Part shown: positions 1 to 59,802 of the stretch, piece by piece
Numbering within the stretch: the first letter of the stretch is position 1
How the letters are laid out: each line of letters begins with the position of its first letter
DNA from: a phage
DNA length: 64,000 nt
Sequence record: NC_135728.1
Reading direction: 5' to 3' (one strand)
Program-made: the position numbers and the translations under genes
The notes under the pieces: model-generated
Database searches by the model: none
What the model was told of the DNA's origin: nothing
Seen by the model: the letters and a program-made list of their open reading frames with translations, nothing else

Positions 1-94
1 TAAAAAGGCAGGCGGTGTTGTCCTTGATTGATCATTGACATAACCACAAGGACGTGGTATTGTTACCTCATAAAATGTTTAGGAGGGCTTAACC

Positions 95-301
95 ATGAAA
101 GATTTTCTGTTGGCAATTTTGTTCATGGCAGCATGTCTGGCCTGTGGTGTCGTGTTTGCAGGTGAAACAGCGTATCTTGTCGATGTATATCGGGACAATG
201 GTAAACGTATTTGCCTTTATGAGACAAGTCAAGGTGAGCTCTACGAGCTTGTGAAACAAGGCGAGGCTGGATCTTGTCCTCGCACCCATTTCTTTGAATG
301 A
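95..301 (+). CDS. small protein with N-terminal signal/TM-like segment
   Basis: 68-aa ORF with RBS-like aggagg upstream; N-terminus LLAILFMAACLACGVVFA is hydrophobic. Confidence 0.4.
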   Translation: MKDFLLAILFMAACLACGVVFAGETAYLVDVYRDNGKRICLYETSQGELYELVKQGEAGSCPRTHFFE

Positions 302-310
302 GGAGAATAC

Positions 311-775
311 GTGGAAGACGGACGTTTAATGAAGTCTGAACGCAGGCTTATTGTGCAACTGATCCCAGAAACAGCTTGGTATAATAACCTCCGAAACGCT
401 GTGAAGAAGAGTGAGTGGGATAAGATCCGTAAGAAGTGCTACAGAGAAGCCAACTACACTTGCGAGGTGTGCGGAGGTAAAGGCAGCAAACATCCAGTGG
501 AGTGTCATGAACTTTACACTTTCGAAGAAGGAGTGATCCGTCTTGTCGGACTGATAGCGTTGTGCCCAGACTGTCACACATCGGTGCATCCTGGGTTAGC
601 AAATATCCGTGGAAAGTATGCTCAGGCAGTTAATCAGTTGGCTAAGGTGAATAAGATCACCAAGGGTATGGCAGAGGCGTATTACCGAGACTGCTTTGCA
701 GAGTGGCGTGAGCTTAGTAAAGTTCCAGAATGGAAGACTGACTTTTCGTGGATAGAGGGTTACCTTGATGGCTAA
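311..775 (+). CDS. HNH/zinc-finger nuclease-like protein
   Basis: GTG start 6 nt after gaggag RBS; CEVCGG...ECHE...LCPDCHTSVH arrangement resembles HNH zinc-binding motif. Confidence 0.45.
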   Translation: MEDGRLMKSERRLIVQLIPETAWYNNLRNAVKKSEWDKIRKKCYREANYTCEVCGGKGSKHPVECHELYTFEEGVIRLVGLIALCPDCHTSVHPGLANIRGKYAQAVNQLAKVNKITKGMAEAYYRDCFAEWRELSKVPEWKTDFSWIEGYLDG

Positions 776-1058
776 GAAACCTGTAAAAGAGAAATTTGAT
801 AAGACAGCTTTTGTATTCGATACACCTTTGGACGATATCATCAGAGGTATGCAAGCCTTGTATCGGAAGTCTGAATCTGAGCAGCTGTCGGAATCAGAGC
901 TTTACTGGTTGGGTTGGTGGGAGCTTAATCTACCTAAAGCTGAAAGCTCTGATCTAAAAACCGTTAAAACGTGTGCCCAAGAAAATGCTGCACTTGGAAT
1001 TTACCACAAAAGAAAAAGATCAACAAAAAGCTCTCCAAGAAAGACTAAAAAGTCTTGA
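765..1058 (+). CDS. hypothetical protein, lysine-rich C-terminus
   Basis: 97-aa ORF overlapping upstream stop (translational coupling). Confidence 0.35.
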   Translation: MMAKKPVKEKFDKTAFVFDTPLDDIIRGMQALYRKSESEQLSESELYWLGWWELNLPKAESSDLKTVKTCAQENAALGIYHKRKRSTKSSPRKTKKS

Positions 1059-1084
1059 CAAATGAGTCTCTGATCTGATATTAT
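1055..1084 (+). promoter_or_regulatory. sigma70-like promoter TTGACA-N18-TATTAT
   Basis: Consensus -35 hexamer and near-consensus -10 read directly, followed by aggag RBS and ATG at 1118. Confidence 0.5.
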
Positions 1085-1117
1085 CAGTTAACTATTTATT
1101 AACTAGGAGAACTAGGT

Positions 1118-1426
1118 ATGCTTAAAATTTTTATTGTTGAAGATAAAGATATCGTCCAGTTGTATGCAAACGAGAATCACAAAGGTATGATTCTGAAGAA
1201 GGCAAAAAACCTTCATGAAAACACAATTCAACCGGGTGATGTAATTAAGATCTGTGGTTATATGATACCAGACTCCTTGATGAAAATAACCCACCACTGG
1301 GGGTCTAATCCGTTCCTTTTTGAAAAGTATTGGGATGTTGAGTCACTTATTGCAGAGAGTGATGATGCATTTCATTACAGCATCCAACCATCTTGCAGAA
1401 TAACTAACAGGAGGGGCTTTGAGTAG
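1118..1426 (+). CDS. hypothetical protein
   Basis: 102-aa ORF with aggag RBS, downstream of promoter. Confidence 0.5.
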   Translation: MLKIFIVEDKDIVQLYANENHKGMILKKAKNLHENTIQPGDVIKICGYMIPDSLMKITHHWGSNPFLFEKYWDVESLIAESDDAFHYSIQPSCRITNRRGFE

Positions 1427-2558
1427 AGAATATCCACTTATTGAATCTGTAGATTGTCTTGCTGATCTTCTCGAACCTGACGCTATAGTTTATTATGACT
1501 TCGACCAGGTTGCATATCAAGCTGCGGCAAGTTGTGAAAAAAGGACAATTGAGGTAACACACAAAGCCTCCGGACGTAAGAAGATGTTTAAAACACGAAC
1601 AGAGTTCTGGGGGCGGCAGAAAAACACCGTTGGTGGTTGGTTAAAAGCTGAGAATACCAACCGTGAAGCCGCATGTAAAAAGGCTGGAAAGGAGTTTATT
1701 CCGTGGACACGCGAAGATTTCGATGTCTTGGATATCCAAACCCCTGATCCTGTAGAGAACTGCTTACACACAATTAAGTGTAAAGCTAATGCAGTTCTTA
1801 ACTATCTTGGTATTCCGGAAGAGCGATGTGTCGGGGTGTTGGGAGGCACAGGTAACTTCAGACTAGATCTTCCAATGCCGGAAAGATACAAAGCCAACCG
1901 TAACAATACTCTTCGACCACTGCTGCTTGGAGATGCAAGACAGTATCTCCAAAAGCAGTATAATGCTCAAGTGATCAACGGTATCGAGGCTGACGACTGG
2001 TTAGCTATCCAGCAATTTGAAGGTTGGAACCACTACCAAAAAACAGGTAAGTTCAACAAGTTTATTATCTCTATTGATAAGGACCAAAGAACACTACCTG
2101 GACTTGTGTTCGATCCCATGCGAAACGATAAGGGAGATTTTGTAAGGGAAACCCCTATGCTGATCGATAACGGCATGGGAAACATCTTCATGAAGCCTAA
2201 TGGAGAGGTTGGTGGTTACGGAATGCTGTTCTTCGGATACCAAATGCTGTGTGGTGACTCTGCTGACAACATCAAGCCGTATCAAGGACTTATCGGTAAG
2301 GGTAAGTTCGGGGATGCCTCAGCATTCTACCTGCTGTCTCAGTGCAGCACTCCAAAGGAGATGTGGGTGGCTATTATTGATCAGTACAAGAAGTGGTTCC
2401 CGAAAGGTGTTGTTAAGTATACTGACTTCAATGGCATTGATCGTAGAATTTCCGTAGGTCAATGGATGAGTATAATTTTTGACTGTTTGTATATGAAGCG
2501 AACATTCAATGATCAAACAAAACTTGTTAACGTTCTTAGAAATGTTGGAGCAATTTGA
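1419..2558 (+). CDS. 5'-3' exonuclease / flap endonuclease (FEN family)
   Basis: Motifs YKANR, GIEADDWLA and H3TH-like GDSADNIKPYQGLIGKGKFG match the 5' nuclease family of Pol I N-domain/phage FEN. Confidence 0.65.
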   Translation: MSREYPLIESVDCLADLLEPDAIVYYDFDQVAYQAAASCEKRTIEVTHKASGRKKMFKTRTEFWGRQKNTVGGWLKAENTNREAACKKAGKEFIPWTREDFDVLDIQTPDPVENCLHTIKCKANAVLNYLGIPEERCVGVLGGTGNFRLDLPMPERYKANRNNTLRPLLLGDARQYLQKQYNAQVINGIEADDWLAIQQFEGWNHYQKTGKFNKFIISIDKDQRTLPGLVFDPMRNDKGDFVRETPMLIDNGMGNIFMKPNGEVGGYGMLFFGYQMLCGDSADNIKPYQGLIGKGKFGDASAFYLLSQCSTPKEMWVAIIDQYKKWFPKGVVKYTDFNGIDRRISVGQWMSIIFDCLYMKRTFNDQTKLVNVLRNVGAI

Positions 2559-2890
2559 TGACTAAAAATGCTGTAGATAATGCAATTATGGAAGCTGTTT
2601 TTGAGGATGATCATACAACAGGGACACTTAAAACAAAAAACACATTTATTGTTGCCACAGGTATGTGGCGGTTGTACGAAGATGACACTATTGCATACAT
2701 CTTGTATACTGATGATTACGCAGATGACCGTGTATGGTCTGCTGTTTTAAAAGAGGATTGTGAGCTGATTGAGGGCGAGCGGTTATGCATGTTCACCAGT
2801 GTGGAAACAGATGTTAAGCTTTGCTCTCTCGTCTTGTTCAAAGATAAGGCTTATGCTCCTGATGAAGGAGAGGAGGATGAGAGAGCATGA
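2555..2890 (+). CDS. hypothetical acidic protein
   Basis: 111-aa ORF, start overlaps upstream stop. Confidence 0.45.
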   Translation: MMTKNAVDNAIMEAVFEDDHTTGTLKTKNTFIVATGMWRLYEDDTIAYILYTDDYADDRVWSAVLKEDCELIEGERLCMFTSVETDVKLCSLVLFKDKAYAPDEGEEDERA

Positions 2891-3516
2891 GAGAGCGTCT
2901 ATTATCCATAGACCAGTCGTTGACACACACAGCTTGCGTTGTATGGGACGATGGAAAGCCTGTTCATAAGGTTGTGTTACGAACTCAAAGCTCATCTGCA
3001 AAAGAGAAGAAACCAGGGACGGTTTCTTTTGCAACAGCTGCTGAGCGCATTGACTGGATCTGCAAACAGGTCAGATATTATATCCACACGCACGGAGTTG
3101 ACACCGTGGTTATGGAAGGGCTTTCCTTTGGATCACGCGGTGATGCCACACGTGAGCTGGCTGGGCTGTTTTACGGTCTTGAAATTATGCTTTGGGATGC
3201 CTTAGCTGATTGTGAAAATGACGGCCTGTTTAAGGTCCACACAGTGACACCAACAACTGCCAAAAAGTTTGCTCGTAGTCATCTTCCTGAAGAACTTGCT
3301 TTTGAGGAGAAGAAAAAGCTTGACAAAAAGACAGGTAAAGAGCATACTGTGAAGAAACCTGTTACAATGGATAAAAAGTTGATGGTTAAGGCCTGCGAAG
3401 TATCTGAACCTGGGTTCCTAGATGGGATCAATTTGGTACAAGGTAAGGCCGATCTCGCAGATGCTTATTGGATAGGCAGGGCTCATCTGGAGGGATTATC
3501 GCAAAGCGTAAAATAA
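2887..3516 (+). CDS. hypothetical protein (possible RNase H-fold nuclease)
   Basis: 209-aa ORF; SIDQS...VVMEGLSFGSRGD loosely resembles RuvC-like acidic motif spacing; weak. Confidence 0.4.
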   Translation: MRERLLSIDQSLTHTACVVWDDGKPVHKVVLRTQSSSAKEKKPGTVSFATAAERIDWICKQVRYYIHTHGVDTVVMEGLSFGSRGDATRELAGLFYGLEIMLWDALADCENDGLFKVHTVTPTTAKKFARSHLPEELAFEEKKKLDKKTGKEHTVKKPVTMDKKLMVKACEVSEPGFLDGINLVQGKADLADAYWIGRAHLEGLSQSVK

Positions 3517-4073
3517 GAAAGAAAGCTGTCAAAGCCCCAGTTCATAACGGGTGGTTAAAAGATTCTAAGGACATAGCCAACTTTCGAAAAGAATTGTCAG
3601 AGGAGCAGGATGGTCTTGATCCGATCTTGTGCGAGCCACTTCGTAAGCCTTGTTTAGATCATGATCATCTGACTGGTCGTTGCAGGGGTGTTTTGTCTCA
3701 ATGCACTAATACCTTTGAGGGATATGTGCTTAAATACTGGATGAAATACTGTAACGAGTATACAGATTGCAGTTTATCAGAGGCGTTGCGCCGGATGGCT
3801 GACTATTTGGAGAAAGACTACAGCGACTTCCCGCTCCACAAAAACTACAGAGATGATATGACAAAGTTCTTGAGGAGATGCTCTAAAGCTACGATTATTG
3901 CACGAGCAGAATCAGATCTAAATCTTGTCATTAATCCGGAGTGCACCAAGCATGAGGCTATTGAGTTCTACATGCAGGAGTTTATAAAGAAAACTGAGGA
4001 GAGAGATTTCTATGGGGATGAAAAAGGTATTCAATCCTTGCGACTCAGTCCTGATCAGGATGAAATACCGTAA
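3468..4073 (+). CDS. endonuclease VII-like (HNH family) junction-resolving nuclease
   Basis: CLDHDHLTGRCRGVLSQCTNTFEG matches the T4 endonuclease VII signature (LDHDH..G..RG.LC..CN..EG); start uncertain, ORF overlaps upstream gene. Confidence 0.6.
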   Translation: MDRQGSSGGIIAKRKIRKKAVKAPVHNGWLKDSKDIANFRKELSEEQDGLDPILCEPLRKPCLDHDHLTGRCRGVLSQCTNTFEGYVLKYWMKYCNEYTDCSLSEALRRMADYLEKDYSDFPLHKNYRDDMTKFLRRCSKATIIARAESDLNLVINPECTKHEAIEFYMQEFIKKTEERDFYGDEKGIQSLRLSPDQDEIP

Positions 4074-4233
4074 CTGGAAAGGTGTTGTTGCAGATCGCTG
4101 CGTTACTGAGCCTAATTTATGGTTTGGATCTACAGAGTATCATAAAGAAGAGCAGTGGTTGATGCGTGCCTTCGATGTAGACAAGGGCGAATATCGTGAC
4201 TTCGCTTTAAAAGACATTCTTCAGTTTTACTAA
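4060..4233 (+). CDS. hypothetical small protein
   Basis: ORF track 4012..4233; an internal ATG overlapping the upstream stop is the likelier start. Confidence 0.3.
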   Translation: MKYRNWKGVVADRCVTEPNLWFGSTEYHKEEQWLMRAFDVDKGEYRDFALKDILQFY

Positions 4234-4245
4234 GGAATCTTAACG

Positions 4246-5229
4246 ATGATGACAAAGTTAACTCTTGAGCAAATTTTAACACTAAAGCAACAGGGATACA
4301 CTAATAGACAAATTGCTCGTGAATTTTTAGGCCGTGAGTCACGTGAGAGCTGGATCCGACTACAGCTTAAACGTGCACAAGAGAATATGTCAGAGATTGT
4401 AGGAGAAGCAACGGAGCGCTTCCTTGAAGAACACAAAGGTGCTAAAGTTTGGGTGTATGATACAGAGACATCCCCAACAAACGGCTGGTTCTTTGGGCAC
4501 TATAAGACCAACATTCAAACCTGTGGTATTGAAGTTATGCCCTATATGCTAACTTTCGCAGGTAAGTGGTTAGACAGCCCTAGTGTGGTTGACTGCGCTC
4601 TTCCAGATTACAAAATGTGGGATGAAGATATTCACAATGATCTCGAATTGATTCAGGATTTGTGGTATTATCTGGATAAATGCGATGTCGCAGTAGCCCA
4701 CAATTCAGGTTTTGACTGCGGGTGGGCCAACCAACGATTTGCATTTCACGGGTTGCCTCCAACAAGCCCCTACAAAGAGGTTGACACCCTTAAAATGATC
4801 AAGAAGGCATTCCGTTTGAATGCAAACACTTTGGAGTATGCATGCAAATACTTCCAACTGGCCAGACAGAAACTGATTGATCACACATTTGAAATGTGGA
4901 TCAAGTGTGTCCATGGCGATCTTGAGGCATTTAAACAGATGCGGGAGTATAATGTTGGTGATATCCTGTCTCTGGAAGGACTGTATTTGCTGGCTCGCCC
5001 GTTTGCTAAGCAGCACCCAAACATGTCATTGTACTACCAGGACGAGGAGCCAAAGGTTCGTTGCCCACGCTGTGGTGGAGAACACTTTCACGAGGAAGAA
5101 GCTTTGGCATATACTCAGCTGAGTGCATTTAAAACATACCGCTGCGAAGGTTGTGGATCTGTTGTTCGTGACCGTAACAACATCCGTACCAGAGAAGAAA
5201 TGAAAAACACCCTGATTCAGATAATCTAA
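4246..5229 (+). CDS. DEDD-family 3'-5' exonuclease with C-terminal zinc ribbon
   Basis: VYDTETS (Exo I), VAHNSGFD (Exo II), VGDILSLEGLY (Exo III-like), then CPRCGG...CEGCG. Confidence 0.5.
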   Translation: MMTKLTLEQILTLKQQGYTNRQIAREFLGRESRESWIRLQLKRAQENMSEIVGEATERFLEEHKGAKVWVYDTETSPTNGWFFGHYKTNIQTCGIEVMPYMLTFAGKWLDSPSVVDCALPDYKMWDEDIHNDLELIQDLWYYLDKCDVAVAHNSGFDCGWANQRFAFHGLPPTSPYKEVDTLKMIKKAFRLNANTLEYACKYFQLARQKLIDHTFEMWIKCVHGDLEAFKQMREYNVGDILSLEGLYLLARPFAKQHPNMSLYYQDEEPKVRCPRCGGEHFHEEEALAYTQLSAFKTYRCEGCGSVVRDRNNIRTREEMKNTLIQII

Positions 5230-5237
5230 CAATTATA

Positions 5238-5265
5238 GGGAGGCTTGCGCCTCCCTTTTCCTTTT
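5238..5265 (+). terminator. rho-independent terminator-like hairpin
   Basis: GGGAGGC-TTGC-GCCTCCC stem-loop followed by TTTTCCTTTT just after stop of 4246..5229. Confidence 0.5.
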
Positions 5266-5274
5266 GGAGGCACT

Positions 5275-6093
5275 TTGAGCAAGAAAGAGTCCAACGACAA
5301 ATATTACACAAACCCTGAGTATGCAGAATATCTTGTTGGTAAAGTAAAAGACAAGTATGGGAATTGTGCATACGTTGAGCCTTCTGCTGGAAGGGGTTCT
5401 TTTTCAAAACTATTTTCAAAGATACTGTCGTACGATCTAGTACCAGATCCTGAATTTGAAGGACCAACACAGTGCATTCAGGCAAACTTCTTGGAGGTGC
5501 ATCCTAAGGCAGATGTCTTCATAGGTAACCCACCATTTGGCAAGAATTCATCTTTAGCTTGCAAATTCTTTAACCATTGTGCATCATTGCTAGAGCTTGG
5601 CGGGGCTATAGCCTTCATCTTGCCACGGACATTTGAAAAAATATTTTTTGCAAACAAACTGGACATGTCTATGCACCTTGTCTACAGCGAAAGGTGCCCT
5701 AAGAACTCGTTTTTACTTAATGGCAAACCTTACGACGTGCCATGTGTTTTCCAAATTTGGGAGAAAAAGGCGTGCAATAGGGATCCTGTAGAGATTGGAG
5801 AGAATAAGTTATTTTCTTTTAGCACTCCGGATGACTACGACTTCTGTGTAAGACGTGTTGGGTATAATGCTGGAAAAGTATTGGGGGATGATGACCCAAA
5901 ATCTGAAGAATCGACATATTTCATAAAATCTTTAGTTGACGGTGTTGACAGAGTGTTTGCCGAATGCTATTCTTCTTTTCAAGAAGAAGCAGGTAAGACT
6001 GCTGGAATGAAGAGTATAGGCAAGAAAGAACTACAATACATTTTGGAGACCCGGTATGATCAAAAGCATAGACTTGACCAAAGAACTTACTGA
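5275..6093 (+). CDS. N6-adenine DNA methyltransferase (NPPF motif)
   Basis: SAM-binding-like EPSAGRGSF and catalytic GNPPFG; likely TTG start at 5275 after ggagg RBS (ORF track starts 5245 inside the terminator hairpin). Confidence 0.55.
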   Translation: MSKKESNDKYYTNPEYAEYLVGKVKDKYGNCAYVEPSAGRGSFSKLFSKILSYDLVPDPEFEGPTQCIQANFLEVHPKADVFIGNPPFGKNSSLACKFFNHCASLLELGGAIAFILPRTFEKIFFANKLDMSMHLVYSERCPKNSFLLNGKPYDVPCVFQIWEKKACNRDPVEIGENKLFSFSTPDDYDFCVRRVGYNAGKVLGDDDPKSEESTYFIKSLVDGVDRVFAECYSSFQEEAGKTAGMKSIGKKELQYILETRYDQKHRLDQRTY

Positions 6094-6514
6094 TGCAAAA
6101 GCTTTTGGTGAGACAGCGGTACAAAGAGGCCAGGCGATGGGACTGGCACTACCTTTCGTCTTAAAAGAGCACTTTACAGATTTTCAACTTATCAAAGGTG
6201 ATAAGGGAATGCTTATCCTGGAGCATAAGTTGAGTAAGAAACGCTACAAAGTTGTTTTTAATTCTAAAGCCCCAACAAAACTTGGATTCAGAACTTACAA
6301 TCTCAACCCATCCTATACTAAGGGTGTTGGAAGGGTAGAACAACAGCATTTCAGTGCTAGAGCTTCTTTAGCCCCTTTGATGCTAAATTTCTCAGGAGTG
6401 GCTTTAGGATACCTTGATAAGAAAAGAGTTCTTCATGTCCGTTTCACAGACTTTGTAACGCTTTTAGCTAACAACGAAGTTGATGAAAAGGGACGTGTAA
6501 AAACAAACTTCTAA
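6056..6514 (+). CDS. hypothetical protein
   Basis: 152-aa ORF; start uncertain, overlaps upstream gene. Confidence 0.4.
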   Translation: MIKSIDLTKELTDAKAFGETAVQRGQAMGLALPFVLKEHFTDFQLIKGDKGMLILEHKLSKKRYKVVFNSKAPTKLGFRTYNLNPSYTKGVGRVEQQHFSARASLAPLMLNFSGVALGYLDKKRVLHVRFTDFVTLLANNEVDEKGRVKTNF

Positions 6515-6529
6515 TAACGCATAGTATGA

Positions 6530-6733
6530 TTGGAGACCGCAATGACACTAAAGTTAACAATTCCAGACAGCTTTTCAGAAAACTTTATCCCAGAAATGAT
6601 GGGTAAGATGCGATCATTGCTTGATCAGATTGAGGAAGCTGTTTGGGAAGACGATGCTGTAGTGGCTAACGAGCTAGTAGATAAGTGTAAAAGTATTATT
6701 GATGCAGTTGAAGAATACTACGGAGGTTTTTGA
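6530..6733 (+). CDS. hypothetical small acidic protein
   Basis: 67-aa ORF with RBS ggagacc; stop overlaps next start. Confidence 0.4.
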   Translation: METAMTLKLTIPDSFSENFIPEMMGKMRSLLDQIEEAVWEDDAVVANELVDKCKSIIDAVEEYYGGF

Positions 6734-7347
6734 TGGATATTATTGTTCTTAACGCCCCACCCAGCAGCGGTAAGGATCACATTGCAGATCTCTTGTTGGA
6801 AGCTATTCCTAACTCACACCATCGTGAGGTTAAGGAGATGCTCTTCAGCGTGGCAATTAAGGCAGCTGGTGTAACTCCTCAACTCTGGAATGCACTTTAT
6901 GACCGCCACTACAAAGAAGAGCCTTGCCCTTTCTTAATGATAGACGGCAAGCATGTTTCTCCGCGAGAGTGGATGATCCATTGTAGTGAAAATCTGATTA
7001 AACCTATCTTTGGTGAAGATGCTTTCGGTAAGGCCGCAGTCACATCCTTGAAGAAAGATTTCCCTAAAGGTAAAGGGGTTGTTGTTTACTCCGATGGTGG
7101 ATTTAAAGAGGAGCTGGCGTGCCTTAGTGAGTACGCATACAGCACAGGTGGAGATCTGTTGTTGTTCCGTATTCACCGTGTCGGATATGACTGGGGAAAT
7201 GATTCCAGAACCTATCTAAGTCTGGAAAAGAACGGAATAAAAGGGATTGAGTTCGATGTTGTAAATCCTGAAGGTGCACCTTGGGAATGTGCATCGGAGA
7301 TTGTGTGCAAGTATATTGATGCTAAAGAGGCCCAAGAAGAATGTTAA
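6730..7347 (+). CDS. deoxynucleoside monophosphate kinase-like
   Basis: N-terminal IIVLNAPPSSGKDHIADLL resembles the P-loop of T4 gp1 dNMP kinase (LSGVKRSGKDTTADFI). Confidence 0.5.
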   Translation: MMDIIVLNAPPSSGKDHIADLLLEAIPNSHHREVKEMLFSVAIKAAGVTPQLWNALYDRHYKEEPCPFLMIDGKHVSPREWMIHCSENLIKPIFGEDAFGKAAVTSLKKDFPKGKGVVVYSDGGFKEELACLSEYAYSTGGDLLLFRIHRVGYDWGNDSRTYLSLEKNGIKGIEFDVVNPEGAPWECASEIVCKYIDAKEAQEEC

Positions 7348-7934
7348 TCGGAATTGATGTAGATTTGACACTGGTAGATTCAGGAACAGCATGGTGGGAG
7401 TGGTTGGAGCGTTTGTATGGTCCAGCCAGTAAGACAGTCGTTAAACCTTCTAATGGGCTGATGTATTACGATCTGTCAAAGTATTGGCCTGATCGCCCCA
7501 AAGAAAACATCATAGGACCTTTTGATTTCTGGAGTGATCCGTTCCTCTACGACTTCCTTAAGCCTGAAGAGGGGGCTATTGAGGTTATGAAAGATTTGGT
7601 GGCTCGCGGTCACAAGCTCGCATTTATCTCGGTATGCAAGAAAGGTCACCTTGCATCTAAATCAAGGTTCTTAAAGCGTTGGACCAGTGATTTTATGGAT
7701 CTGGATGATCACACCCAGGGTCACGGCTTCTACGCCACACATTTCAAAGGTAATGTGGCTGTAGATGTTATAATTGACGACAGGCATGAATACCTGAACC
7801 AATTCGCTTCACGACCTGAAGTTATTAAAATCCTAAAAGACACACCTTATGAGCAATTCGAGGAGTTAAAGGTCAGTGTTGACTATACCACTAATAGCTG
7901 GTATAAAATAGGAAAGTTTTTAGAAGGTATTTGA
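7341..7934 (+). CDS. HAD-superfamily phosphatase (5'-deoxynucleotidase-like)
   Basis: N-terminal GIDVDLTLVD matches HAD motif I (DxDxT/V). Confidence 0.5.
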   Translation: MLIGIDVDLTLVDSGTAWWEWLERLYGPASKTVVKPSNGLMYYDLSKYWPDRPKENIIGPFDFWSDPFLYDFLKPEEGAIEVMKDLVARGHKLAFISVCKKGHLASKSRFLKRWTSDFMDLDDHTQGHGFYATHFKGNVAVDVIIDDRHEYLNQFASRPEVIKILKDTPYEQFEELKVSVDYTTNSWYKIGKFLEGI

Positions 7935-7935
7935 A

Positions 7936-8136
7936 ATGGGCAGATGTTCTAAAGGTGGCGATCCTGTAGTCAGATACGGTGACTGGCTGGAGGTATATGA
8001 TCTGGGGGGCAAGCTAGTGTATGCCTCCAGGATCACCCAAGACATGTGCTCTGATATGTTTAACAGATACCTTGCATTTAAGGCTAACATAAGCCCAGAC
8101 GAAATTTCCAAAATTAAAACAAGGAGAGCTAAATAA
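7936..8136 (+). CDS. hypothetical protein
   Basis: 66-aa ORF abutting neighbours. Confidence 0.35.
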   Translation: MGRCSKGGDPVVRYGDWLEVYDLGGKLVYASRITQDMCSDMFNRYLAFKANISPDEISKIKTRRAK

Positions 8137-19714: not shown

Positions 19715-20248
19715 ATGACTTGTGCTAGAAAACCTGATGAACAACGTAACGCATACGATGAGTATGTGACACCGGAGTGGTGTGCAGAAGGGCTGTATGA
19801 CCTTATTCCGTTCCCAGAGGACTGGACCTACTTAGAGCCTTGCAGGAATAGTGCCTCAGGTGTGTTCTACTCCCGTATGCCGTTAGGATCTGCATGGGGA
19901 GAAATCCAAGAAGGTGTTGACTATCTGAATACAGAATACAACCATGTTGACTGTATTATCACCAACCCACCATACAGTCTGGCCCGTGAGTTTGTAGACA
20001 AGGCGTTGAAAGATGCTGACGTAGTTATTATGCTTTTGCGTCTTAATTTTCTGGAAAGCAAAGCCAGATTTGAATGGTGGCTTGATAATGCACCTACCAC
20101 TGTGATCACAATATCTAAGCGTCCATCATTTCAATCAAATGGTAGAACTGACGGGCAAGCATATGCATATTTTGTGTGGGATAAGAAAAACCGTTTAGAC
20201 TTGCCGCCATTTATGTGGTTGGCACCCCCAGAGGTAGACCTGAAATGA
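19715..20248 (+). CDS. DNA methyltransferase-like (NPPY motif)
   Basis: 177 aa with catalytic-type motif IITNPPYS; short for a complete methyltransferase. Confidence 0.45.
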   Translation: MTCARKPDEQRNAYDEYVTPEWCAEGLYDLIPFPEDWTYLEPCRNSASGVFYSRMPLGSAWGEIQEGVDYLNTEYNHVDCIITNPPYSLAREFVDKALKDADVVIMLLRLNFLESKARFEWWLDNAPTTVITISKRPSFQSNGRTDGQAYAYFVWDKKNRLDLPPFMWLAPPEVDLK

Positions 20249-54181: not shown

Positions 54182-54457
54182 CAATAGTTCAGGTAGGTCG
54201 TTAAGCTACCCCGCACCATTACGTGCATAGCCATACGTTTTCACGTAGGATCGGACCATCTCATATTCCTATGATAAGCAACCACAGGAATCCTCCCATT
54301 TCGACCGCACTTGCTGGTCTACTTCCTTTCGGAATGGCCTCTGAGCGTTCGCTCTTTTGAGCGCTTCGTTGCGGATTACCTTGCCATAAGGTTTAGGCTT
54401 CCCGCAGTTAAAGAGGTTATTCGACATAGATTACTCTATGAAGCCACAATGTTATTT
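54182..54457 (-). other. group I self-splicing intron in DNA polymerase gene
   Basis: 5' exon ends in U with U-G pair to guide sequence GUGG; intron ends in G; P10 pairing CAUU with exon-2 GAUG; core elements P AACUGCGGGAAG, Q AAUCCGCAAC, R CUCAGAGGCC, S GAGAUGGUCC in canonical order. Confidence 0.75.
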
Positions 54458-56881
54458 ATGGTAATAAATAATACGACGAACACCTTCATCGTACCACCCA
54501 CGCTTCACCATTTGGTGGTGCATGAGTATCCCAACTAAGTCACACAGCGATGCACCACCATTTTGTTGGTATGCATTAAGTAAAGAGTGTTTAGATCTGG
54601 TCCAGATAGCATGACCATCGAAAGAGTAGATAAACTTCTTACCTGTTGCTTCCCAGAATTTCTCCAGATCCTCTTTGCGCCCCTTAAGACCGGGGTTGGC
54701 ATCCCAAAGTGCATCTATTACCCTTTGCCCCAACTCTGGAGAGATGTCCAACATATCTGCAACTTTATCTTTTTGTGCCCCGTACATAACACCATACGTG
54801 ATAGGTTTACCGTCGTTACGGGACACCTCTCTGCCTGCTACTTTTGTATATGCCTCGGCATTGTTTTGGTGTGCGTCTCCGTTACTTACAACATCATAAT
54901 ACAGGCCGTTGTCGAACTCAAAGGCACCCCAAGCCCCGATAAGCTGCTCTAAGTTGGACCCGTCAATACCGATCTGAAAGTATCCGGGAGGAACACCCCA
55001 TAGACTACGCATCTCTTTACCCATAACCACTTTAGGAGATGGTTTAGGCATGTTTGCACAAATACTGTGTTTCTGTCTGGAAGTGTTTGTTAGCCCAGAA
55101 CTTTTAGCAGGAAGCTTATGGTCAATCTTCAAACGTGGGTGATTAAGAAGACCAGTATCAACCTTATCCTCCTTGATTGGGTCAAGGACCGATCTGCGGT
55201 TTCGCAATGATAACCACAAGACGATATCTTTAGCCATCTCTCCGTTCAATTTTTCAAGATTCGGACACAGGTGTCCAAACGTATCTTTCAGTTGCGGAGA
55301 AGTAATAAGTGCCCTGGCTTTTCTACGTATTTTCCCGAACACTTCCTTTTTAATCCTTTCGGAGTTAGGAAAGCTTCGGAACTTGTGCACGGTTGTCTGG
55401 AACTTAGCATCAGTTTTGTTCCAGAAGTTGATAATTAGGTCACAATACTCTGACTCTAAAAGCTCGTCCATATAAGCATATACTCGTGCATCAACATCTG
55501 CATCAGGTAGAGCTTTCTTCTTGCTGTCTTTAGTTACATCCTTAGTTCTCCACATTGTCGGGAGCCAGCCAGCGCTGATCAGATACCGCTTAATGTCGTC
55601 CTGATTGCTGATTTTCATAGGTATCTTGCAGTCCGGCATTCGCTTCTGCTGTAGATCACTTATTGCCTGATCCATCAGCTCTTTAGGCAAAGGGTGTGGT
55701 GTGGAAGTTCCCTTAATATAGCCTCTCAAGAAATCAGCCATCTTATCGGGGTCTTTGCAGCCCATCTCTTCACACCATTTTATCCCCATCTTGCTGACAT
55801 CCCCTGTAGAGGTAAATGCTCTCTTAGGCGGGGCTTTGAACTCTAAAGCGCTCATGTCTACAGGATAGCCAAGCTTATCTTTTAACCATTTCCAACCATT
55901 ATTAGAGATTGTCCCGTCTTGGTTAAACGGCTTTTCAGGGAACTTGGGCCGCTGAGACATTGACAGCTCTTTTAAAGGCAGTTGTGGTTCAACACGATCA
56001 GCTATTTCTTTCATCCACGCATCGCAACGGTCACGTAAAGCAATAGCTCCATCTATGTCGAAGTATACACCCTGACGGGCCTGCAGCTCCATCAGGAAGT
56101 GCTGCAGCATGCCTCGACGTAATGCGTTCTTCCAGGTGATCTTCTTGAACCCTTTCGGCTTCTCTTTGGCAGGATCGTACATAAAGTTCTGCATGTCAGA
56201 TTTGCCGTAGAATACACCTTTTGATTCCGCTACCAGCTCTTTCCAGAGCAGCTCCTGGATGATAACGTCCTCGAATACACGATCCACATACTTCCACAAC
56301 GGGAGATCGCGCCAGTCATCAATTTGAACTTTCTGGTTACCAAGGGCGTAGCCCCATGCCATAAGACCGTGAGGTCCAACAGGCTGCATTTTCTTAGTAA
56401 CCGGGTTAAATACTGAGTCTGGACAACCTTTTGGCAAAGGTCGGTCAGGCCACAAAATTCGGCTCATAGCCAATGTATCAAACAGATTAACCTGGTGGTC
56501 GTTGATAGTCCCCATACACTTAGGATCACGGAACATATCAAAATGAATACCGGACAATCTCTCCATCAGCATAAAGTCGTAGCTGTAGCAGTTGTGGCAG
56601 TTCAAAGCTGTGGGTGACCAGTCAGAATTGCCTGTAAGCCAACCTTCCAACTCTGAAAAATCTGCTATGCGAACTTCAAAATCTTTATAAAGAGTTTTCT
56701 TTGCCAGAATAAAGTTCTTAGCCTTCTCTATATCCTCTTCAGAGTAGTGTGTGCGGTCATTTAGAGGAAGGAACAGCATAAAACGGTTCTTATTCAGCTC
56801 TTTAAACAAGCCGCAGTGATAATAAAGATCTAGGTCTTCTAGTAAACCAGAGGCCTCCAGGTCGAAAGACCACATACTCAT
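54458..56881 (-). CDS. DNA polymerase (family A), exon 1
   Basis: 3'-5' exo motif FDLEASGL; polymerase motif A-like QIGIDGSNLEQ; motif B KPITYGVMYGA; ORF stops one codon after YYH, just before the expected HDE. Confidence 0.8.
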
Positions 56882-56939: not shown

Positions 56940-59018
56940 TTAAAAAGGTGTTTCATCGTCTTCAAAACCGGGAACAGGGTCAGAGGACGGATCATCATAC
57001 GGAAGGTCTTCTTGTGTGTCAACAGGGTTAACAGTAGGAGTTACAACCTTATCAGCCACAACCCTACCTACAGGTGTTTCTACAACTGCGTGCTCTTGAT
57101 CCTCAAACATAGCTTGAGGTCTCCAAACAACCTCCCCACCTTCTCCGTCTGTGAACATCTGCATTTCTTTGTCCCAGTACCAGTTGCTGGCATCATGGAA
57201 CTTACCTGTGTGGGGATCCATAACTAAGGTATCCGCAATGCCTAACGTTTTTGCTGGGCGGTTTTTAAGACCTACCAGTCGGACACGTCCACGGGAACGA
57301 TCCACCATCTCTTCTGCCTCCACCCCAACAACTACCCAGCTAAGTTGCTCCAATCCGGCACTACCCCGAAGGTTCTCTTTTCGTACAGGATACCAGAAAG
57401 GTAACGGATTCCCATCCTTGTCCTTTGGAGGCACAATCTCTGTGCGTTTCAGGTGAGCGATCACCAAGATAAATACATTAAACTGCTTACAGAACGCGGC
57501 TAGTTGGGTCATAGCCATGTCCAGCTCTTTTCGCTCATCCTTAACATTAAGCCCTGAAATTACCATGGACAGGTGATCCAGCACAATATAACGGCAGTGA
57601 TACAGACACACCATTTGTTTAAGCTTAGTGATCAACTCATCTACAGGAATAGACCCAAAATGCTTGAACACTTTGATTTTTCCCGCCTTGGCCCAAGATT
57701 GGTGAATCTCAGCATGCTCCTGATCAGTCAGGAACTGACTAGGGTCTTCAACAAACTCTTTAACATCAAACCCCAACTGGTTGGCGTATAGAGAGTTAAT
57801 TGCTTCCTCAGGGTCCTCTTCAAGGTGAATCAGACACAGGCGATCATCCTCTTCATAATCATCGGCTTTAGGGCATGTAGGATCCATCAAGTATTTTGCA
57901 ATGCAGTGTTCTAGTTTCTTGGCTACAGTTGTTTTACCACCGCCAGATGGGCCTGTCAGCATCATCAAGGTGCCTTTGTGAAGTCCTTTCAGCATCTTCT
58001 GCAATTTAGGGAACTCCGCGCTGATATCTACGCCATTAGAAGTCTTCTTACGAAGAGATTCAATGGAGAAGTCTTCTAAATCAGATACAGCATCAGGCAC
58101 ATATTTGACTGGGTGACGGAACATGTTGACAATATCTTCCAGCTTTTTAGCCTTCAGCATGTCACGGATATCTTTTACACCGTCAGGGTCGTTTACCTCA
58201 CTGGGGTATTCCACGTGGTAAACGTTATCAGCCATCAAAAATGCCGCGATATTATGTGTGGCTTCAACACCTTTGATAACGTGTTTTTGCTTCTCTACCT
58301 CGTTAGCTGCATCGTTGTCCATTGCAAGGACCACTGTTCCGTAGCTACGGATAAATTTCTCATTGTTTGCAAAAGTATCTACTGCGTTTGCACATCCACA
58401 GTTAATTCCAACAAAAGGCAGGCAGGGTTTTCCTGCCAGATCACCCCCGTTGATAACTGCATCGATCCCGTCCTGGACCTCTTTAGCCCACTGTTTCACC
58501 TTTGCCGGGGCTTTAGCGTTGGTGAGAATCCCTTTTACTTGTATCTGATATGCAGCCTGCCATGCTGCAATAACATCGCCTTCCCCCTCACAAACGTTAA
58601 TCTGCTTACGGTTGTTAGAAGATGCACACAGCTTTTGCCCAAACATTTGGGAGTTAGCCTTTACGATCCCAACCGTCGTAAAGTGCCCACGTTGCTCTTT
58701 GGGGATCGTCCAGTCACGCTTTTTGAAACCGGACAGATTCCCGTAGCGGTCGTAATATGGAAAATATGTTGCAGTAACTGTCACACCGTCTTCTTGGGAC
58801 AATGCTGATCGCACACCAAAATATTGTGCAGCCATCAGACCGATATTTTGTTGTGGGACAGGGACGATTTTAGTATTTTCTAAAACAGTCTCTACAGTTT
58901 CAACCTCTTTTTCATCACGATAGTCTCGTTTCACACTTCCCCCACTTTTATACTTAGTTGCTTTCGGGTTTGGCTCACCGAAACGGTTATATGCAGATGC
59001 CATAAATTTACTTCCCAT
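56940..59018 (-). CDS. primase-helicase (TOPRIM primase plus DnaB-like helicase)
   Basis: TOPRIM-like CEGEGDVIAAW in N-terminal half; Walker A MLTGPSGGGKTT and Walker B-like LIHLEED in C-terminal half. Confidence 0.75.
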   Translation of the reverse strand: MGSKFMASAYNRFGEPNPKATKYKSGGSVKRDYRDEKEVETVETVLENTKIVPVPQQNIGLMAAQYFGVRSALSQEDGVTVTATYFPYYDRYGNLSGFKKRDWTIPKEQRGHFTTVGIVKANSQMFGQKLCASSNNRKQINVCEGEGDVIAAWQAAYQIQVKGILTNAKAPAKVKQWAKEVQDGIDAVINGGDLAGKPCLPFVGINCGCANAVDTFANNEKFIRSYGTVVLAMDNDAANEVEKQKHVIKGVEATHNIAAFLMADNVYHVEYPSEVNDPDGVKDIRDMLKAKKLEDIVNMFRHPVKYVPDAVSDLEDFSIESLRKKTSNGVDISAEFPKLQKMLKGLHKGTLMMLTGPSGGGKTTVAKKLEHCIAKYLMDPTCPKADDYEEDDRLCLIHLEEDPEEAINSLYANQLGFDVKEFVEDPSQFLTDQEHAEIHQSWAKAGKIKVFKHFGSIPVDELITKLKQMVCLYHCRYIVLDHLSMVISGLNVKDERKELDMAMTQLAAFCKQFNVFILVIAHLKRTEIVPPKDKDGNPLPFWYPVRKENLRGSAGLEQLSWVVVGVEAEEMVDRSRGRVRLVGLKNRPAKTLGIADTLVMDPHTGKFHDASNWYWDKEMQMFTDGEGGEVVWRPQAMFEDQEHAVVETPVGRVVADKVVTPTVNPVDTQEDLPYDDPSSDPVPGFEDDETPF

Positions 59019-59802
59019 TAATTCTGCTCCTTACCACAGGCTCGTTTGCTAAGAATACGGCTTTTGCCCAGCCACGGGGCGTGAGGCTTCGAATCATCTT
59101 CGTCCTTGCACTTTTTCCACCTAGCTTAGCGTGTTGCATGGAATACCCGCTAACCGCGTCAACTATTTGCGGGACAGGTTTTGTGGCCGGGATTATAAAT
59201 CCATTACCTATCCAGCCGCAAGTTATTTTTGGATAGGCATCGCGTGGAGCTATAAATTCAGGAAACCAAGGGTTTACATCATCCTCCGGTAAATACCCGC
59301 CATAGTCAGAAGGATGAAAACGGTAATCAGGTTTGCGCCACAGTGTGGACATAACACCTACAGGATTCTCTACATGCCACGGGCAATCGTAAATCTCTCC
59401 CAGCTCTTCCGCAACCCGAGCATCCTTTACAGCATTAATTTGGATCATAGGGTCCTTAGCCAGCTTTTTCTTAAAATGTGCAGCACCTGATACCGCTAAA
59501 TGCGTGCACGGAGGAAATGCAAGAATAAAGTCTGGAGCTGGGTACATGCAAAAAGTTTCCTGAGGGAACCATGGGTCAATCCAATAATCCACATAGTGAA
59601 TGTTGGGATGATCGGTTATCACCTCTGCATAACTGCCGTGATCAGCACCTTCTGCATTAAAGCACAGGCACAGGTACCCAGCTTTTGCCCAGTCAATGAC
59701 TGCACCACCAGACCCGTCAAATAGACTCCACACAACACCTTTGTGGTAGTGTTCTTTGTAGATAAATTTCAATTTGCTGTCTCCTAATGCAAAAAGCCCC
59801 AC
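59008..59802 (-). CDS. C5-cytosine methyltransferase-like protein (PCT variant)
   Basis: Motif I SLFDGSGGAV, motif IV AFPPCTHLAVSGA with Thr replacing the usual Gln, motif VI HVENPVG; 264 aa with no obvious target-recognition domain. Confidence 0.5.
   Translation of the reverse strand: MGLFALGDSKLKFIYKEHYHKGVVWSLFDGSGGAVIDWAKAGYLCLCFNAEGADHGSYAEVITDHPNIHYVDYWIDPWFPQETFCMYPAPDFILAFPPCTHLAVSGAAHFKKKLAKDPMIQINAVKDARVAEELGEIYDCPWHVENPVGVMSTLWRKPDYRFHPSDYGGYLPEDDVNPWFPEFIAPRDAYPKITCGWIGNGFIIPATKPVPQIVDAVSGYSMQHAKLGGKSARTKMIRSLTPRGWAKAVFLANEPVVRSRINGK

What the first reader, a model, noticed from the sequence alone, without database searches (positions are those of the whole stretch)
1419..5229. 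Cluster of four nucleases at the left end
An HNH-like protein, a FEN-type 5'-3' exonuclease, an endonuclease VII-like resolvase and a DEDD exonuclease lie within 5 kb, followed by an N6-adenine methyltransferase. This suggests a recombination, host-DNA degradation and self-protection module.
Basis: partly seen in the sequence, partly recalled or inferred. Interest (0 to 1): 0.35.

Follow-up and report, generated by a model that had tools for sequence, protein, structure and literature searches.

The report
Vequintavirus replication-recombination nuclease operon plus methylase
This is the ordinary, already annotated block of DNA replication and recombination nucleases of an rV5-like E. coli phage, followed by a separately transcribed adenine methylase that probably marks GTAC sites.

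Summary
The window is a Vequintavirus (rV5-like E. coli myovirus), 97-99% identical to more than 100 GenBank phage genomes that already label these genes.

**What is there**
- The stated range holds four nuclease genes:
  - a FEN-type 5'-3' exonuclease (1419-2558);
  - a T4 endonuclease VII homologue (3468-4073);
  - a DEDDy 3'-5' exonuclease with an HTH and a zinc ribbon (4246-5229).
- The HNH protein lies outside the range, at 311-775.
- A sigma-70-like promoter (1055-1084) and a strong terminator (5237-5256) bracket the four nuclease genes as one predicted unit.
- The N6-adenine methyltransferase (true start 5275, end 6093) lies behind that terminator. It is missing from the two distant relatives checked, which keep the nuclease order.

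**Reading**
- This is a replication, recombination and DNA-debranching toolkit.
- I found no evidence for host-DNA degradation.
- None of the nucleases is a restriction-type partner for the methylase.

**One new inference**
- Published Bas51 methylome data show 6mA at GATC, made by the other 177-aa methylase, and at GTAC, whose maker is unassigned.
- This enzyme is the only other amino-methyltransferase candidate in the MaxTheCat genome, so it is probably the GTAC methylase.

Novelty and interest are low.

The parts
311..775 (+). HNH endonuclease-like protein (154 aa). It lies in the upstream transcription unit and outside the finding's coordinates.
   Evidence: PHROG 5200 'HNH endonuclease' at 2.4e-72, plus seven other HNH PHROGs. 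PADLOC ZorE HNH at 6e-6. Weak PDB match to the HNH domain of a group II intron maturase, aligning CxxC...H...CHxxH. Pfam HNH is below its threshold.
1055..1084 (+). Sigma-70-like promoter: TTGACA, 18-nt spacer, TATTAT with an extended TG. It sits 34 nt upstream of the first ORF of the unit.
   Evidence: 11 of 12 consensus matches; sequence read. This is a consensus match only, with no expression data.
1118..1426 (+). 102-aa protein of unknown function, first gene of the unit.
   Evidence: PHROG 14449 at 8.7e-72 carries the label 'transposase'. Pfam, NCBIfam and PADLOC give no support for that label.
1419..2558 (+). FEN-type (PIN-like) 5'-3' exonuclease / flap endonuclease, 379 aa.
   Evidence: PHROG 107 'exonuclease' at 2.8e-71. 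Distant homologues carry PF02739 and PF01367. Invariant D27 D29 K158 R161 E190 D192 D193 D220 K221 D222 D280 D283. The family profile hits the solved 5'-3' exonuclease 9l56 at 3.3e-5 and the Taq 5' nuclease domain across the YKxxR, EADD, DKD and GDxxDN motifs. The protein itself has no direct Pfam or NCBIfam hit.
2555..2890 (+). 111-aa protein of unknown function.
   Evidence: PHROG 7583 (unknown function) at 1.2e-56.
2887..3516 (+). RuvC-family Holliday junction resolvase, 209 aa, with an insertion of about 30 residues relative to the shorter (157-161 aa) homologues.
   Evidence: PHROG 159 at 5.4e-39. Distant homologues carry PF02075. D9, E77, D189 and D192 are conserved. AlphaFold2 model with pLDDT 92. 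The top 12 Foldseek PDB hits are all RuvC chains (4ld0 at 4e-8, target TM-score 0.72-0.79), and phage bIL67 RuvC also matches.
3468..4073 (+). T4 gp49-type recombination endonuclease VII, 201 aa. It overlaps the end of the RuvC-like gene by 49 nt.
   Evidence: PF02945 at 31.6 bits, above the 23.6-bit cutoff. PHROG 423 at 6.4e-37. Direct hit to T4 endonuclease VII 1e7d at 3.3e-4 over residues 61-167, aligning LDHDH and RGxL...N..EG. TTG 3468 is the only canonical start upstream of the conserved N-terminal region.
4012..4233 (+). 73-aa protein of unknown function. GenBank annotators start it at the ATG at 4018.
   Evidence: PHROG 3715 at 2.6e-26. It is kept next to the DEDD exonuclease in the distant relative L012.
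4246..5229 (+). DEDDy-type 3'-5' exonuclease, 327 aa, with an N-terminal helix-turn-helix and a C-terminal CxxC...CxxC zinc ribbon.
   Evidence: PHROG 403 at 5.6e-110. Homologues carry PF00929 or PF13482. D72, E74, N153 and D157 are invariant, and Y235-x3-D239 is conserved in full-length members. The family profile hits Pol III epsilon at 8e-5 and, for the N-terminus, weakly the NarL HTH. Zinc-ribbon families match weakly. The structure model is weak (pLDDT 65), and the fold matches to DnaQ, RNase T and PolB exonuclease domains are only E of about 1e-3.
5237..5256 (+). Intrinsic terminator: 8-bp stem with 6 G-C pairs, followed by TTTCCTTTTG. It ends the nuclease unit.
   Evidence: sequence. 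Phage Murica carries a terminator annotation at the same place.
5275..6093 (+). Gamma-class N6-adenine DNA methyltransferase, 272 aa, with motif I EPSAGRG followed by motif IV NPPF. Its target is probably GTAC.
   Evidence: PADLOC type II methyltransferase model PDLC03255 at 1.7e-34 over its full length. PHROG 5172 at 6.8e-129 and PHROG 799 'DNA methyltransferase' at 3.9e-13. The family profile hits METTL5 and M.TaqI across motifs I and IV. 2214 representative clusters match. The GTAC assignment is by elimination from published Bas51 data.

Best explanation
This is the conserved replication and recombination nuclease operon of a Vequintavirus (rV5-like E. coli myovirus).

**The unit.** One predicted transcription unit runs from the promoter at about 1055 to the terminator at 5237-5256. 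It encodes:
- a FEN-type 5'-3' exonuclease. By analogy with T5 D15, T4 RNase H and T7 gp6, it would remove Okazaki primers and flaps and resect 5' ends;
- a RuvC-family resolvase and a T4-type endonuclease VII. Both would cut Holliday junctions and other branches in the replicating concatemer so that DNA can be packaged;
- a stand-alone DEDDy 3'-5' exonuclease with DNA-binding-type accessory domains, which would trim 3' ends. Its exact role is open.

The HNH protein belongs to the unit upstream.

**The methylase.** The adenine methyltransferase is a separate, less conserved gene behind the terminator. It most likely makes GT(6mA)C on phage DNA.

**Shown and inferred.** Shown here are the family and fold assignments, the conserved catalytic residues, the conserved gene order, and the promoter and terminator consensus matches. 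The substrates, the division of labour between the two resolvases, the operon structure in vivo and the GTAC specificity are all inferred.
For: **Identity of the window.** It is 97-99% identical over 8 kb to 122 phage records, nearly all Vequintavirus. Their annotations carry the same labels.

**Family assignments.**
- FEN.
- RuvC.
- Endonuclease VII.
- DEDDy exonuclease.
- Methyltransferase.

**Signals and context.**
- The promoter and terminator consensus matches bracket 1118-5229.
- Neighbouring genes are ATP-dependent ligase, an NT5C-type nucleotidase, ThyX and ribonucleotide reductases, which make up a DNA synthesis arm.
- The order FEN, x, RuvC, (endonuclease VII), small ORF, DEDD exonuclease, then ThyX further on, is kept in two relatives whose proteins are only 30-50% identical. 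Neither shows a match to the methylase.

**GTAC inference.**
- In Bas51, the T83P mutation in the 177-aa methylase drops GATC 6mA from 1405 to 35. GTAC 6mA stays at 509 against 511 (PMC12548924, Fig 4f data).
- Residues D69, D79 and T83 match the window ORF 19715-20248, not this gene.
- Only these two genes in the whole MaxTheCat genome carry a (D/N/S)PP(Y/F/W/H) motif in a real gene. The third annotated methylase is a C5-cytosine type.
- The window's GATC:GTAC site ratio is 357:126, or 2.83. The methylome ratio is 1405:509, or 2.76.
Against: - No biochemical or genetic data on any of these proteins turned up in the paper searches.
- The FEN and RuvC-like proteins have no direct hit in Pfam or NCBIfam. 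Their assignment rests on PHROGs, transitive homology and, for RuvC, a predicted structure.
- The DEDD model is of low confidence.
- The promoter and terminator are consensus matches only.
- Two resolvases side by side is redundant on its face, and nothing here explains it.
- The GTAC assignment is by elimination. I did not open the Bas51 record itself: Bas51 was identified as WalterGehring from the run of taxonomy ids, and all 12 records with host E. coli K-12 carry the gene.
- The best solved-structure match of the methylase profile is an rRNA methylase, METTL5.
Confidence: 0.8

Rival explanations
1. The nucleases degrade host DNA, and the adjacent methylase marks phage DNA so that it escapes them. 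That would make the region a coupled attack and self-protection module.
For: T7 uses a FEN-family exonuclease (gp6) together with an endonuclease to break down host DNA (established knowledge). The phage DNA does carry 6mA at GTAC and GATC. The nuclease genes and the methylase gene are adjacent.
Against: - The four nucleases of the operon belong to structure-specific or end-specific families, so base methylation would not block them.
- A terminator separates the methylase from the nuclease unit.
- The methylase is not co-conserved with the nucleases in two distant relatives.
- No DenB or A1 homologues were found in most Vequintavirinae.
- The surrounding genes are for DNA synthesis.
Confidence: 0.08
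2. The DEDD exonuclease is the proofreading subunit of the phage DNA polymerase, as the PHROG and RefSeq label 'DNA polymerase exonuclease subunit' says.
For: PHROG 403 carries that label. There are weak matches to Pol III epsilon and to the PolC exonuclease.
Against: - The phage PolA (54452-56881, minus strand) is T7-like. Its N-terminus, FDLEA, aligns with the T7 Exo I motif SDIEA, so it appears to carry its own exonuclease domain.
- The two genes lie about 50 kb apart.
- The HTH and zinc-ribbon additions are not features of known proofreading subunits (my own knowledge).
Confidence: 0.15
3. The 272-aa methyltransferase acts on RNA (METTL5-like) or on a DNA motif other than GTAC. In that case GTAC methylation in Vequintaviruses comes from another source.
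For: The best solved-structure match of the family profile is the rRNA m6A methylase METTL5, at 3e-5. Phage BP9 annotates its homologue as 'RNA methylase'.
Against: - There is a full-length match to a PADLOC type II DNA methyltransferase model at 1.7e-34.
- No other amino-methyltransferase candidate exists in the MaxTheCat genome.
- E. coli K-12 has no known GTAC methylase (my own knowledge).
- GTAC 6mA persists when the other phage methylase is inactivated.
Confidence: 0.2
4. The HNH protein (311-775) and the methylase form a phage-borne restriction-modification-like pair that cuts unmethylated host DNA.
For: Some type II restriction enzymes use the HNH fold; KpnI, which cuts GGTACC, is one (my own knowledge). 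Both genes are core to Vequintaviruses.
Against: - The two genes lie 4.5 kb apart, in different predicted transcription units.
- The HNH protein is small, and BASEL annotators call it a putative homing endonuclease.
- Nothing indicates sequence specificity.
Confidence: 0.03

Closest known systems
Annotated homologous region of Vequintavirus genomes (rV5, Murica NC_041871 gp187-gp196, MaxTheCat/Bas57 bas57_0196-0205)
   Same: Same genes in the same order at 97-99% nucleotide identity. Existing labels include exonuclease, RNaseH or Holliday junction resolvase, endonuclease VII, DnaQ-like exonuclease and N6-adenine methyltransferase.
   Different: Nothing material. This work adds fold-level confirmation of the RuvC assignment, the predicted operon boundaries and the proposed GTAC specificity.
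T4 endonuclease VII (gp49), PDB 1e7d
   Same: Direct sequence match over most of the protein. The LDHDH, N and E catalytic positions are kept. The expected role is debranching before headful packaging.
   Different: The N-terminus is about 25-30 residues longer. Two of the four T4 zinc-ligand cysteine positions read S and T here, though four cysteines (C55, C62, C72, C79) lie nearby. It is encoded next to a second resolvase, which T4 lacks (my own knowledge).
Bacterial RuvC and Lactococcus phage bIL67 RuvC (PDB 4ld0, 7w8d, 1hjr, 4ktw)
   Same: Same RNase H-like fold, with target TM-score 0.72-0.79, and the D-E-D-D catalytic tetrad.
   Different: Sequence identity is only 11-17%. An insertion of about 30 residues (roughly 135-162) forms a beta hairpin in the model. 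There is no direct hit to Pfam RuvC.
Phage and bacterial FEN-type 5' nucleases (T5 D15, T4 RNase H, T7 gp6, the Pol I 5' nuclease domain)
   Same: All the acidic clusters are kept, along with the YKxxR, EADD, DKD and GDxxDN motifs.
   Different: The protein is longer (379 aa), with extra sequence between the first acidic cluster and the YKxxR motif. It is too diverged for the Pfam models to detect directly.
Dam-like 177-aa methyltransferase of Bas51 (retron Asa1/Squ1 trigger; PMC12548924)
   Same: Both are orphan N6-adenine methyltransferases of the same phage genus that methylate the phage genome at a 4-bp palindrome.
   Different: It is a different gene (window 19715-20248), with a different size and family. 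Its target, GATC, was shown by experiment. For the gene in this finding the GTAC target is only inferred.

Membership tests
FEN / 5'-3' exonuclease (PF02739 + PF01367) | Conserved acidic metal-binding clusters and the catalytic Lys/Arg | tested here: met
   D27 D29 E190 D192 D193 D220 D222 D280 D283, K158 and R161 are invariant in 26 homologues.
FEN / 5'-3' exonuclease (PF02739 + PF01367) | Significant match to the curated family model or to a solved family member | tested here: inconclusive
   The protein itself has no Pfam or NCBIfam hit. The family profile hits 9l56 at 3.3e-5 and Taq at 0.06. Distant homologues carry PF02739 and PF01367.
FEN / 5'-3' exonuclease (PF02739 + PF01367) | Flap and 5' exonuclease activity | not testable with these tools
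   This needs enzyme assays.
RuvC Holliday junction resolvase (PF02075) | D-E-D-D catalytic tetrad | tested here: met
   E77, D189 and D192 are invariant. D9 is present in every member that is not truncated.
RuvC Holliday junction resolvase (PF02075) | RuvC fold | tested here: met
   Model with pLDDT 92. The top 12 PDB fold hits are all RuvC chains, with E from 4e-8 to 1e-4.
RuvC Holliday junction resolvase (PF02075) | Match to the curated sequence model | tested here: not met
   No Pfam hit for this protein. Only the distant homologues P0100 and P0102 carry PF02075. The family profile against PDB RuvC gives E 0.36.
RuvC Holliday junction resolvase (PF02075) | Dimeric, junction-specific cleavage | not testable with these tools
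   This needs biochemistry.
Recombination endonuclease VII (PF02945) | Score above the Pfam gathering threshold | tested here: met
   31.6 bits against a cutoff of 23.6.
Recombination endonuclease VII (PF02945) | Catalytic D/H...N...E positions of T4 gp49 | tested here: met
   L63-D-H-D-H67, N81 and E84 align with T4 D40-H43, N62 and E65.
Recombination endonuclease VII (PF02945) | Four-cysteine zinc site | tested here: inconclusive
   T4 positions C58 and C61 align with S77 and T80. Four cysteines (C55, C62, C72, C79) are present at shifted positions (and the sequence).
DEDD (DnaQ-like) 3'-5' exonuclease | Exo I (DxE), Exo II (NxxxD) and Exo III (Yx3D) motifs | tested here: met
   D72, E74, N153 and D157 are invariant. 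Y235 and D239 are kept in full-length members.
DEDD (DnaQ-like) 3'-5' exonuclease | Curated model threshold | tested here: not met
   RNase_T scores 21.8 bits against 24. The NCBIfam epsilon models score far below their cutoffs.
DEDD (DnaQ-like) 3'-5' exonuclease | RNase H-like exonuclease fold | tested here: inconclusive
   Model pLDDT is 65. DnaQ, RNase T and PolB exonuclease hits reach only E of about 1e-3.
Gamma-class N6-adenine DNA methyltransferase | AdoMet motif I followed by catalytic (D/N/S)PP(Y/F), in that order | tested here: met
   EPSAGRG comes first and NPPF second. G39, G41 and N85-P-P-F88 are invariant in 31 homologues.
Gamma-class N6-adenine DNA methyltransferase | Match to DNA methyltransferase models | tested here: met
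   PADLOC type II methyltransferase model at 1.7e-34 over its full length. The Pfam Eco57I match is only 0.01, below threshold.
Gamma-class N6-adenine DNA methyltransferase | Target sequence (proposed GTAC) | not testable with these tools
   Inferred by elimination from published Bas51 methylome data. A knockout methylome is needed.
Restriction-modification or self-protection module | A sequence-specific nuclease functionally paired with the methylase | tested here: not met
   The four nucleases of the operon belong to structure-specific or end-specific families, and nothing indicates sequence specificity for the HNH protein. The methylase lies behind a terminator and is not co-conserved in two distant relatives.
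HNH endonuclease | HNH/zinc-finger motif and a family model match | tested here: inconclusive
   PHROG 5200 at 2.4e-72. The CxxC...H...CxxCHxxH pattern aligns with a maturase HNH domain. Pfam HNH scores 13.9 against 21.4 bits, and the central Asn position aligns to Gly.

The most novel reading that the evidence does not exclude
The 272-aa enzyme is the unassigned orphan GT(6mA)C methyltransferase of Vequintaviruses. It would be a member of a large family (more than 2000 representative clusters) that Pfam does not cover. It would shield these otherwise restriction-sensitive phages specifically from GTAC-cutting host enzymes. A bolder extension is that GTAC methylation also serves as a self mark for a phage nuclease such as the upstream HNH protein. 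I put that extension alone at 0.05 or less.
Probability: 0.6. Interest if true: 0.3.

Novelty: already known. Interest (0 to 1): 0.15.

Why it matters
The finding matters little beyond annotation hygiene. It corrects the gene inventory by adding the missed RuvC-family resolvase and placing the HNH protein outside the range. It fixes the methylase start codon. It shows that the PHROG labels 'transposase' and 'DNA polymerase exonuclease subunit' are unsupported or doubtful. Two points could be useful to phage biologists. First, it gives a testable assignment of the unexplained GTAC 6mA seen in Bas51 to this methylase. Second, rV5-like phages keep two different junction resolvases in overlapping adjacent genes, which invites a simple genetic test of redundancy against division of labour.

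Tried and rejected
- **Direct Pfam and NCBIfam scans of the FEN-like and RuvC-like proteins.** They found nothing, even at E up to 10 (Pfam) or up to 1 (NCBIfam). Single-sequence PDB searches also failed. I had to go through homologue profiles and a structure model.
- **DEDD exonuclease structure.** The prediction from a 9-sequence alignment was weak (pLDDT 65), and its fold search was not decisive.
- **'Transposase' label on the 102-aa ORF.** Rejected, because only the PHROG label says so.
- **Proofreading-subunit reading of the DEDD exonuclease.** Downgraded, because the T7-like PolA appears to keep its own Exo I motif.
- **Literature on RsaI or KpnI resistance of rV5-like DNA.** Nothing found.
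- **Link between the Bas51 retron-trigger methylase and this gene.** Rejected. The mutated residues D69, D79 and T83 fit the other, 177-aa methylase.
- **GTAC under-representation.** Observed/expected is 0.52. I did not use it as evidence, because E. coli-like tetranucleotide bias could explain it (CTAG is also at 0.30).

Full report
**Identity of the window.** Positions 1-8000 match 122 phage records by megablast, and 117 of them cover at least 80% of the query at 90-99% identity. Nearly all are Escherichia phages of the genus Vequintavirus (rV5-like myoviruses), among them phiWec193, Murica and MaxTheCat/Bas57. In those records the same genes already carry these labels: HNH endonuclease; exonuclease or putative 5'-exonuclease; RNaseH or Holliday junction resolvase; endonuclease VII; DNA polymerase exonuclease subunit or DnaQ-like 3'-5' exonuclease; and N6-adenine methyltransferase. 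Genome papers on the subfamily also routinely list the endonuclease VII homologue, an exodeoxyribonuclease, HNH endonucleases and adenine and cytosine methylases (PMC7344957; PMC11370258; PMC8879037). At the annotation level the finding is therefore already known.

**Checking the observation.** All the genes are on the + strand.
- The HNH protein is at 311-775, outside the stated range. PHROG 5200 matches it at 2.4e-72. Its CxxC...H...CxxCHxxH pattern aligns with the HNH domain of a group II intron maturase. The Pfam HNH model is below threshold.

*FEN-type exonuclease, 1419-2558 (379 aa).* Pfam and NCBIfam do not detect it. PHROG 107 matches at 2.8e-71. Its distant homologues carry PF02739 and PF01367. 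A 26-sequence alignment shows the full set of FEN acidic clusters and the catalytic Lys/Arg as invariant. The profile of that alignment hits a solved 5'-3' exonuclease (9l56, 3.3e-5) and the Taq 5' nuclease domain across the YKxxR, EADD, DKD and GDxxDN motifs.

*RuvC-family resolvase, 2887-3516 (209 aa).* PHROG 159 matches at 5.4e-39, and distant homologues carry PF02075. D9, E77, D189 and D192 are conserved. The AlphaFold2 model has pLDDT 92. Its top 12 PDB fold matches are all RuvC chains, with E as low as 4e-8 and target TM-scores of 0.72-0.79, and the RuvC of Lactococcus phage bIL67 also matches. An insertion of about 30 residues separates it from the shorter (157-161 aa) homologues.

*Endonuclease VII, 3468-4073 (201 aa).* It scores above the Pfam gathering threshold. 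It also matches T4 endonuclease VII directly, with the LDHDH, Asn and Glu catalytic positions aligned. Two of the T4 zinc-ligand positions are substituted, but four cysteines lie nearby.

*DEDD exonuclease, 4246-5229 (327 aa).* PHROG 403 matches at 5.6e-110. The Exo I and Exo II residues are invariant, and a Y-x3-D Exo III motif makes it a DEDDy type. Its profile hits Pol III epsilon at 8e-5. It has an N-terminal HTH (weak NarL match) and a C-terminal zinc ribbon. The structure model was weak.

*Methyltransferase.* It follows the nucleases as stated, but its true start is TTG 5275. The mechanically listed start at 5245 sits inside a terminator hairpin.

**Organisation.**
- A near-consensus sigma-70 promoter (TTGACA, 18-nt spacer, TATTAT) lies at 1055-1084.
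- A strong intrinsic terminator lies at 5237-5256. Together they bracket the genes from 1118 to 5229. Murica carries a terminator annotation at the same spot.
- The genes within the unit abut or overlap, and the RuvC-like and endonuclease VII genes overlap by 49 nt.
- The HNH gene sits in the upstream unit and the methylase in the downstream one.
- Two distant relatives, with proteins 30-50% identical, keep the order FEN, x, RuvC, (endonuclease VII), small ORF, DEDD exonuclease, then ThyX further on. One of them lacks endonuclease VII, and neither has a detectable homologue of the methylase.
- Flanking genes are an ATP-dependent DNA ligase, a P-loop protein, an NT5C nucleotidase, ThyX and class I and class III ribonucleotide reductases.
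- The polymerase, primase-helicase and a Pif1-type helicase lie about 50 kb away on the other strand.

**Most likely function.** This is the replication and recombination processing toolkit of the phage.
- The FEN enzyme would remove primers and flaps and resect 5' ends.
- The two resolvases would cut junctions and branches in the replicating concatemer before packaging. Related phages appear circularly permuted (PMC7344957).
- The DEDDy exonuclease would trim 3' ends.

These roles are inferred from the families. No experiment on these proteins turned up in the paper searches. The label 'DNA polymerase exonuclease subunit' is doubtful. The PolA is T7-like, and its N-terminal FDLEA aligns with the T7 Exo I motif, so it appears to have its own proofreading domain.

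- Recombination is supported.
- I found nothing for host-DNA degradation. The nucleases of the operon are structure-specific or end-specific by family, and no DenB or A1 homologues were found in most Vequintavirinae (PMC12916289).
- A coupled self-protection module is not supported. The methylase is in a separate transcription unit and is not co-conserved in the two relatives examined. Methylation cannot protect DNA from flap, junction or end nucleases.
- The BASEL study reports Vequintavirinae as exceptionally susceptible to restriction-modification systems (PMC8594841).

**A modest new inference about the methylase.**
- The enzyme has gamma-class motif order (EPSAGRG, then NPPF).
- It matches a type II DNA methyltransferase model over its full length at 1.7e-34.
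- It belongs to a large family that Pfam does not cover: 2214 representative clusters match at E up to 0.001.
- A 2025 study of retron triggers showed that a Bas51 N6-adenine methylase makes G(6mA)TC. The escape mutations D69G, D79G and T83P fit the 177-aa ORF at window 19715-20248, not this gene.
- That paper's source data for Fig 4f give 1405 methylated adenines at GATC in wild type and 35 in the T83P mutant. GTAC stays at 509 and 511. A second activity therefore methylates GTAC, and the main text does not assign it to a gene.
- Across the whole MaxTheCat genome, only the 177-aa and 272-aa genes carry an amino-methyltransferase catalytic motif in a real gene. The third annotated methylase is a Dcm-like C5 enzyme.
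- The window has 357 GATC and 126 GTAC sites, a ratio of 2.83 against 2.76 in the methylome. Scaled to about 137 kb and two strands, the site counts approach the published numbers.
- All 12 Vequintavirus records with host 'Escherichia coli K-12' carry this gene. The locus tags bas48, bas53, bas54 and bas56 were checked on four of them, and bas57 on MaxTheCat.
- I did not open the Bas51 record itself. I identified Bas51 as WalterGehring from the run of taxonomy ids.

I put the GTAC assignment at about 0.6.

**Verdict.** The cluster is real but ordinary, and it is already annotated in more than 100 genomes.

Noticed in passing
window 54232-54467 (-): A group I intron (Rfam RF00028, 64.7 bits, E 4e-14) lies inside the T7-like family A DNA polymerase gene. 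The upstream exon is the ORF 54452-56881 (-). MaxTheCat annotates its polymerase CDS as a two-piece join.
   Followed up: partly
window 19715-20248 (+): A second, 177-aa N6-adenine methyltransferase (NPPY). Its residues D69, D79 and T83 match the published Bas51 escape mutations. It is therefore the GATC methylase that triggers retrons Asa1 and Squ1 (PMC12548924).
   Followed up: yes
window 59008-59802 (-): This ORF corresponds to the 'Dcm-like C5 cytosine methyltransferase' of MaxTheCat (bas57_0072). It gave no Pfam hit at 1e-3 here, so that label is unverified.
   Followed up: no
window 1-8000 compared with GenBank MG0656xx records: Twenty unannotated records named 'Campylobacter phage' (host C. 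jejuni) are 97-98% identical to E. coli Vequintaviruses over this region. The host attribution looks doubtful.
   Followed up: no
whole window: Counts of 4-bp palindromes are skewed. Observed/expected is 0.52 for GTAC, 0.30 for CTAG and 1.48 for GATC. The GTAC depletion may be restriction avoidance or simply host-like bias.
   Followed up: partly
window 2887-4073 (+); loci L011 and L012: Two different junction-resolvase families (RuvC-like and endonuclease VII) sit in adjacent genes that overlap by 49 nt. The distant relative L011 has only the RuvC-like gene. In L012 the match to the RuvC-like protein covers only its first 130 or so residues, while endonuclease VII is intact. The two may partly substitute for each other.
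   Followed up: partly
window 1118-1426 (+): The 102-aa protein's PHROG (14449) is labelled 'transposase', and RefSeq Murica copies that label. No Pfam, NCBIfam or PADLOC model supports it.
   Followed up: partly
locus L012 4724-5347: In a distant relative, an extra Rv2179c-like (DEDD-type) exonuclease gene sits between endonuclease VII and the DEDDy exonuclease. So the nuclease content of this block varies between relatives.
   Followed up: no
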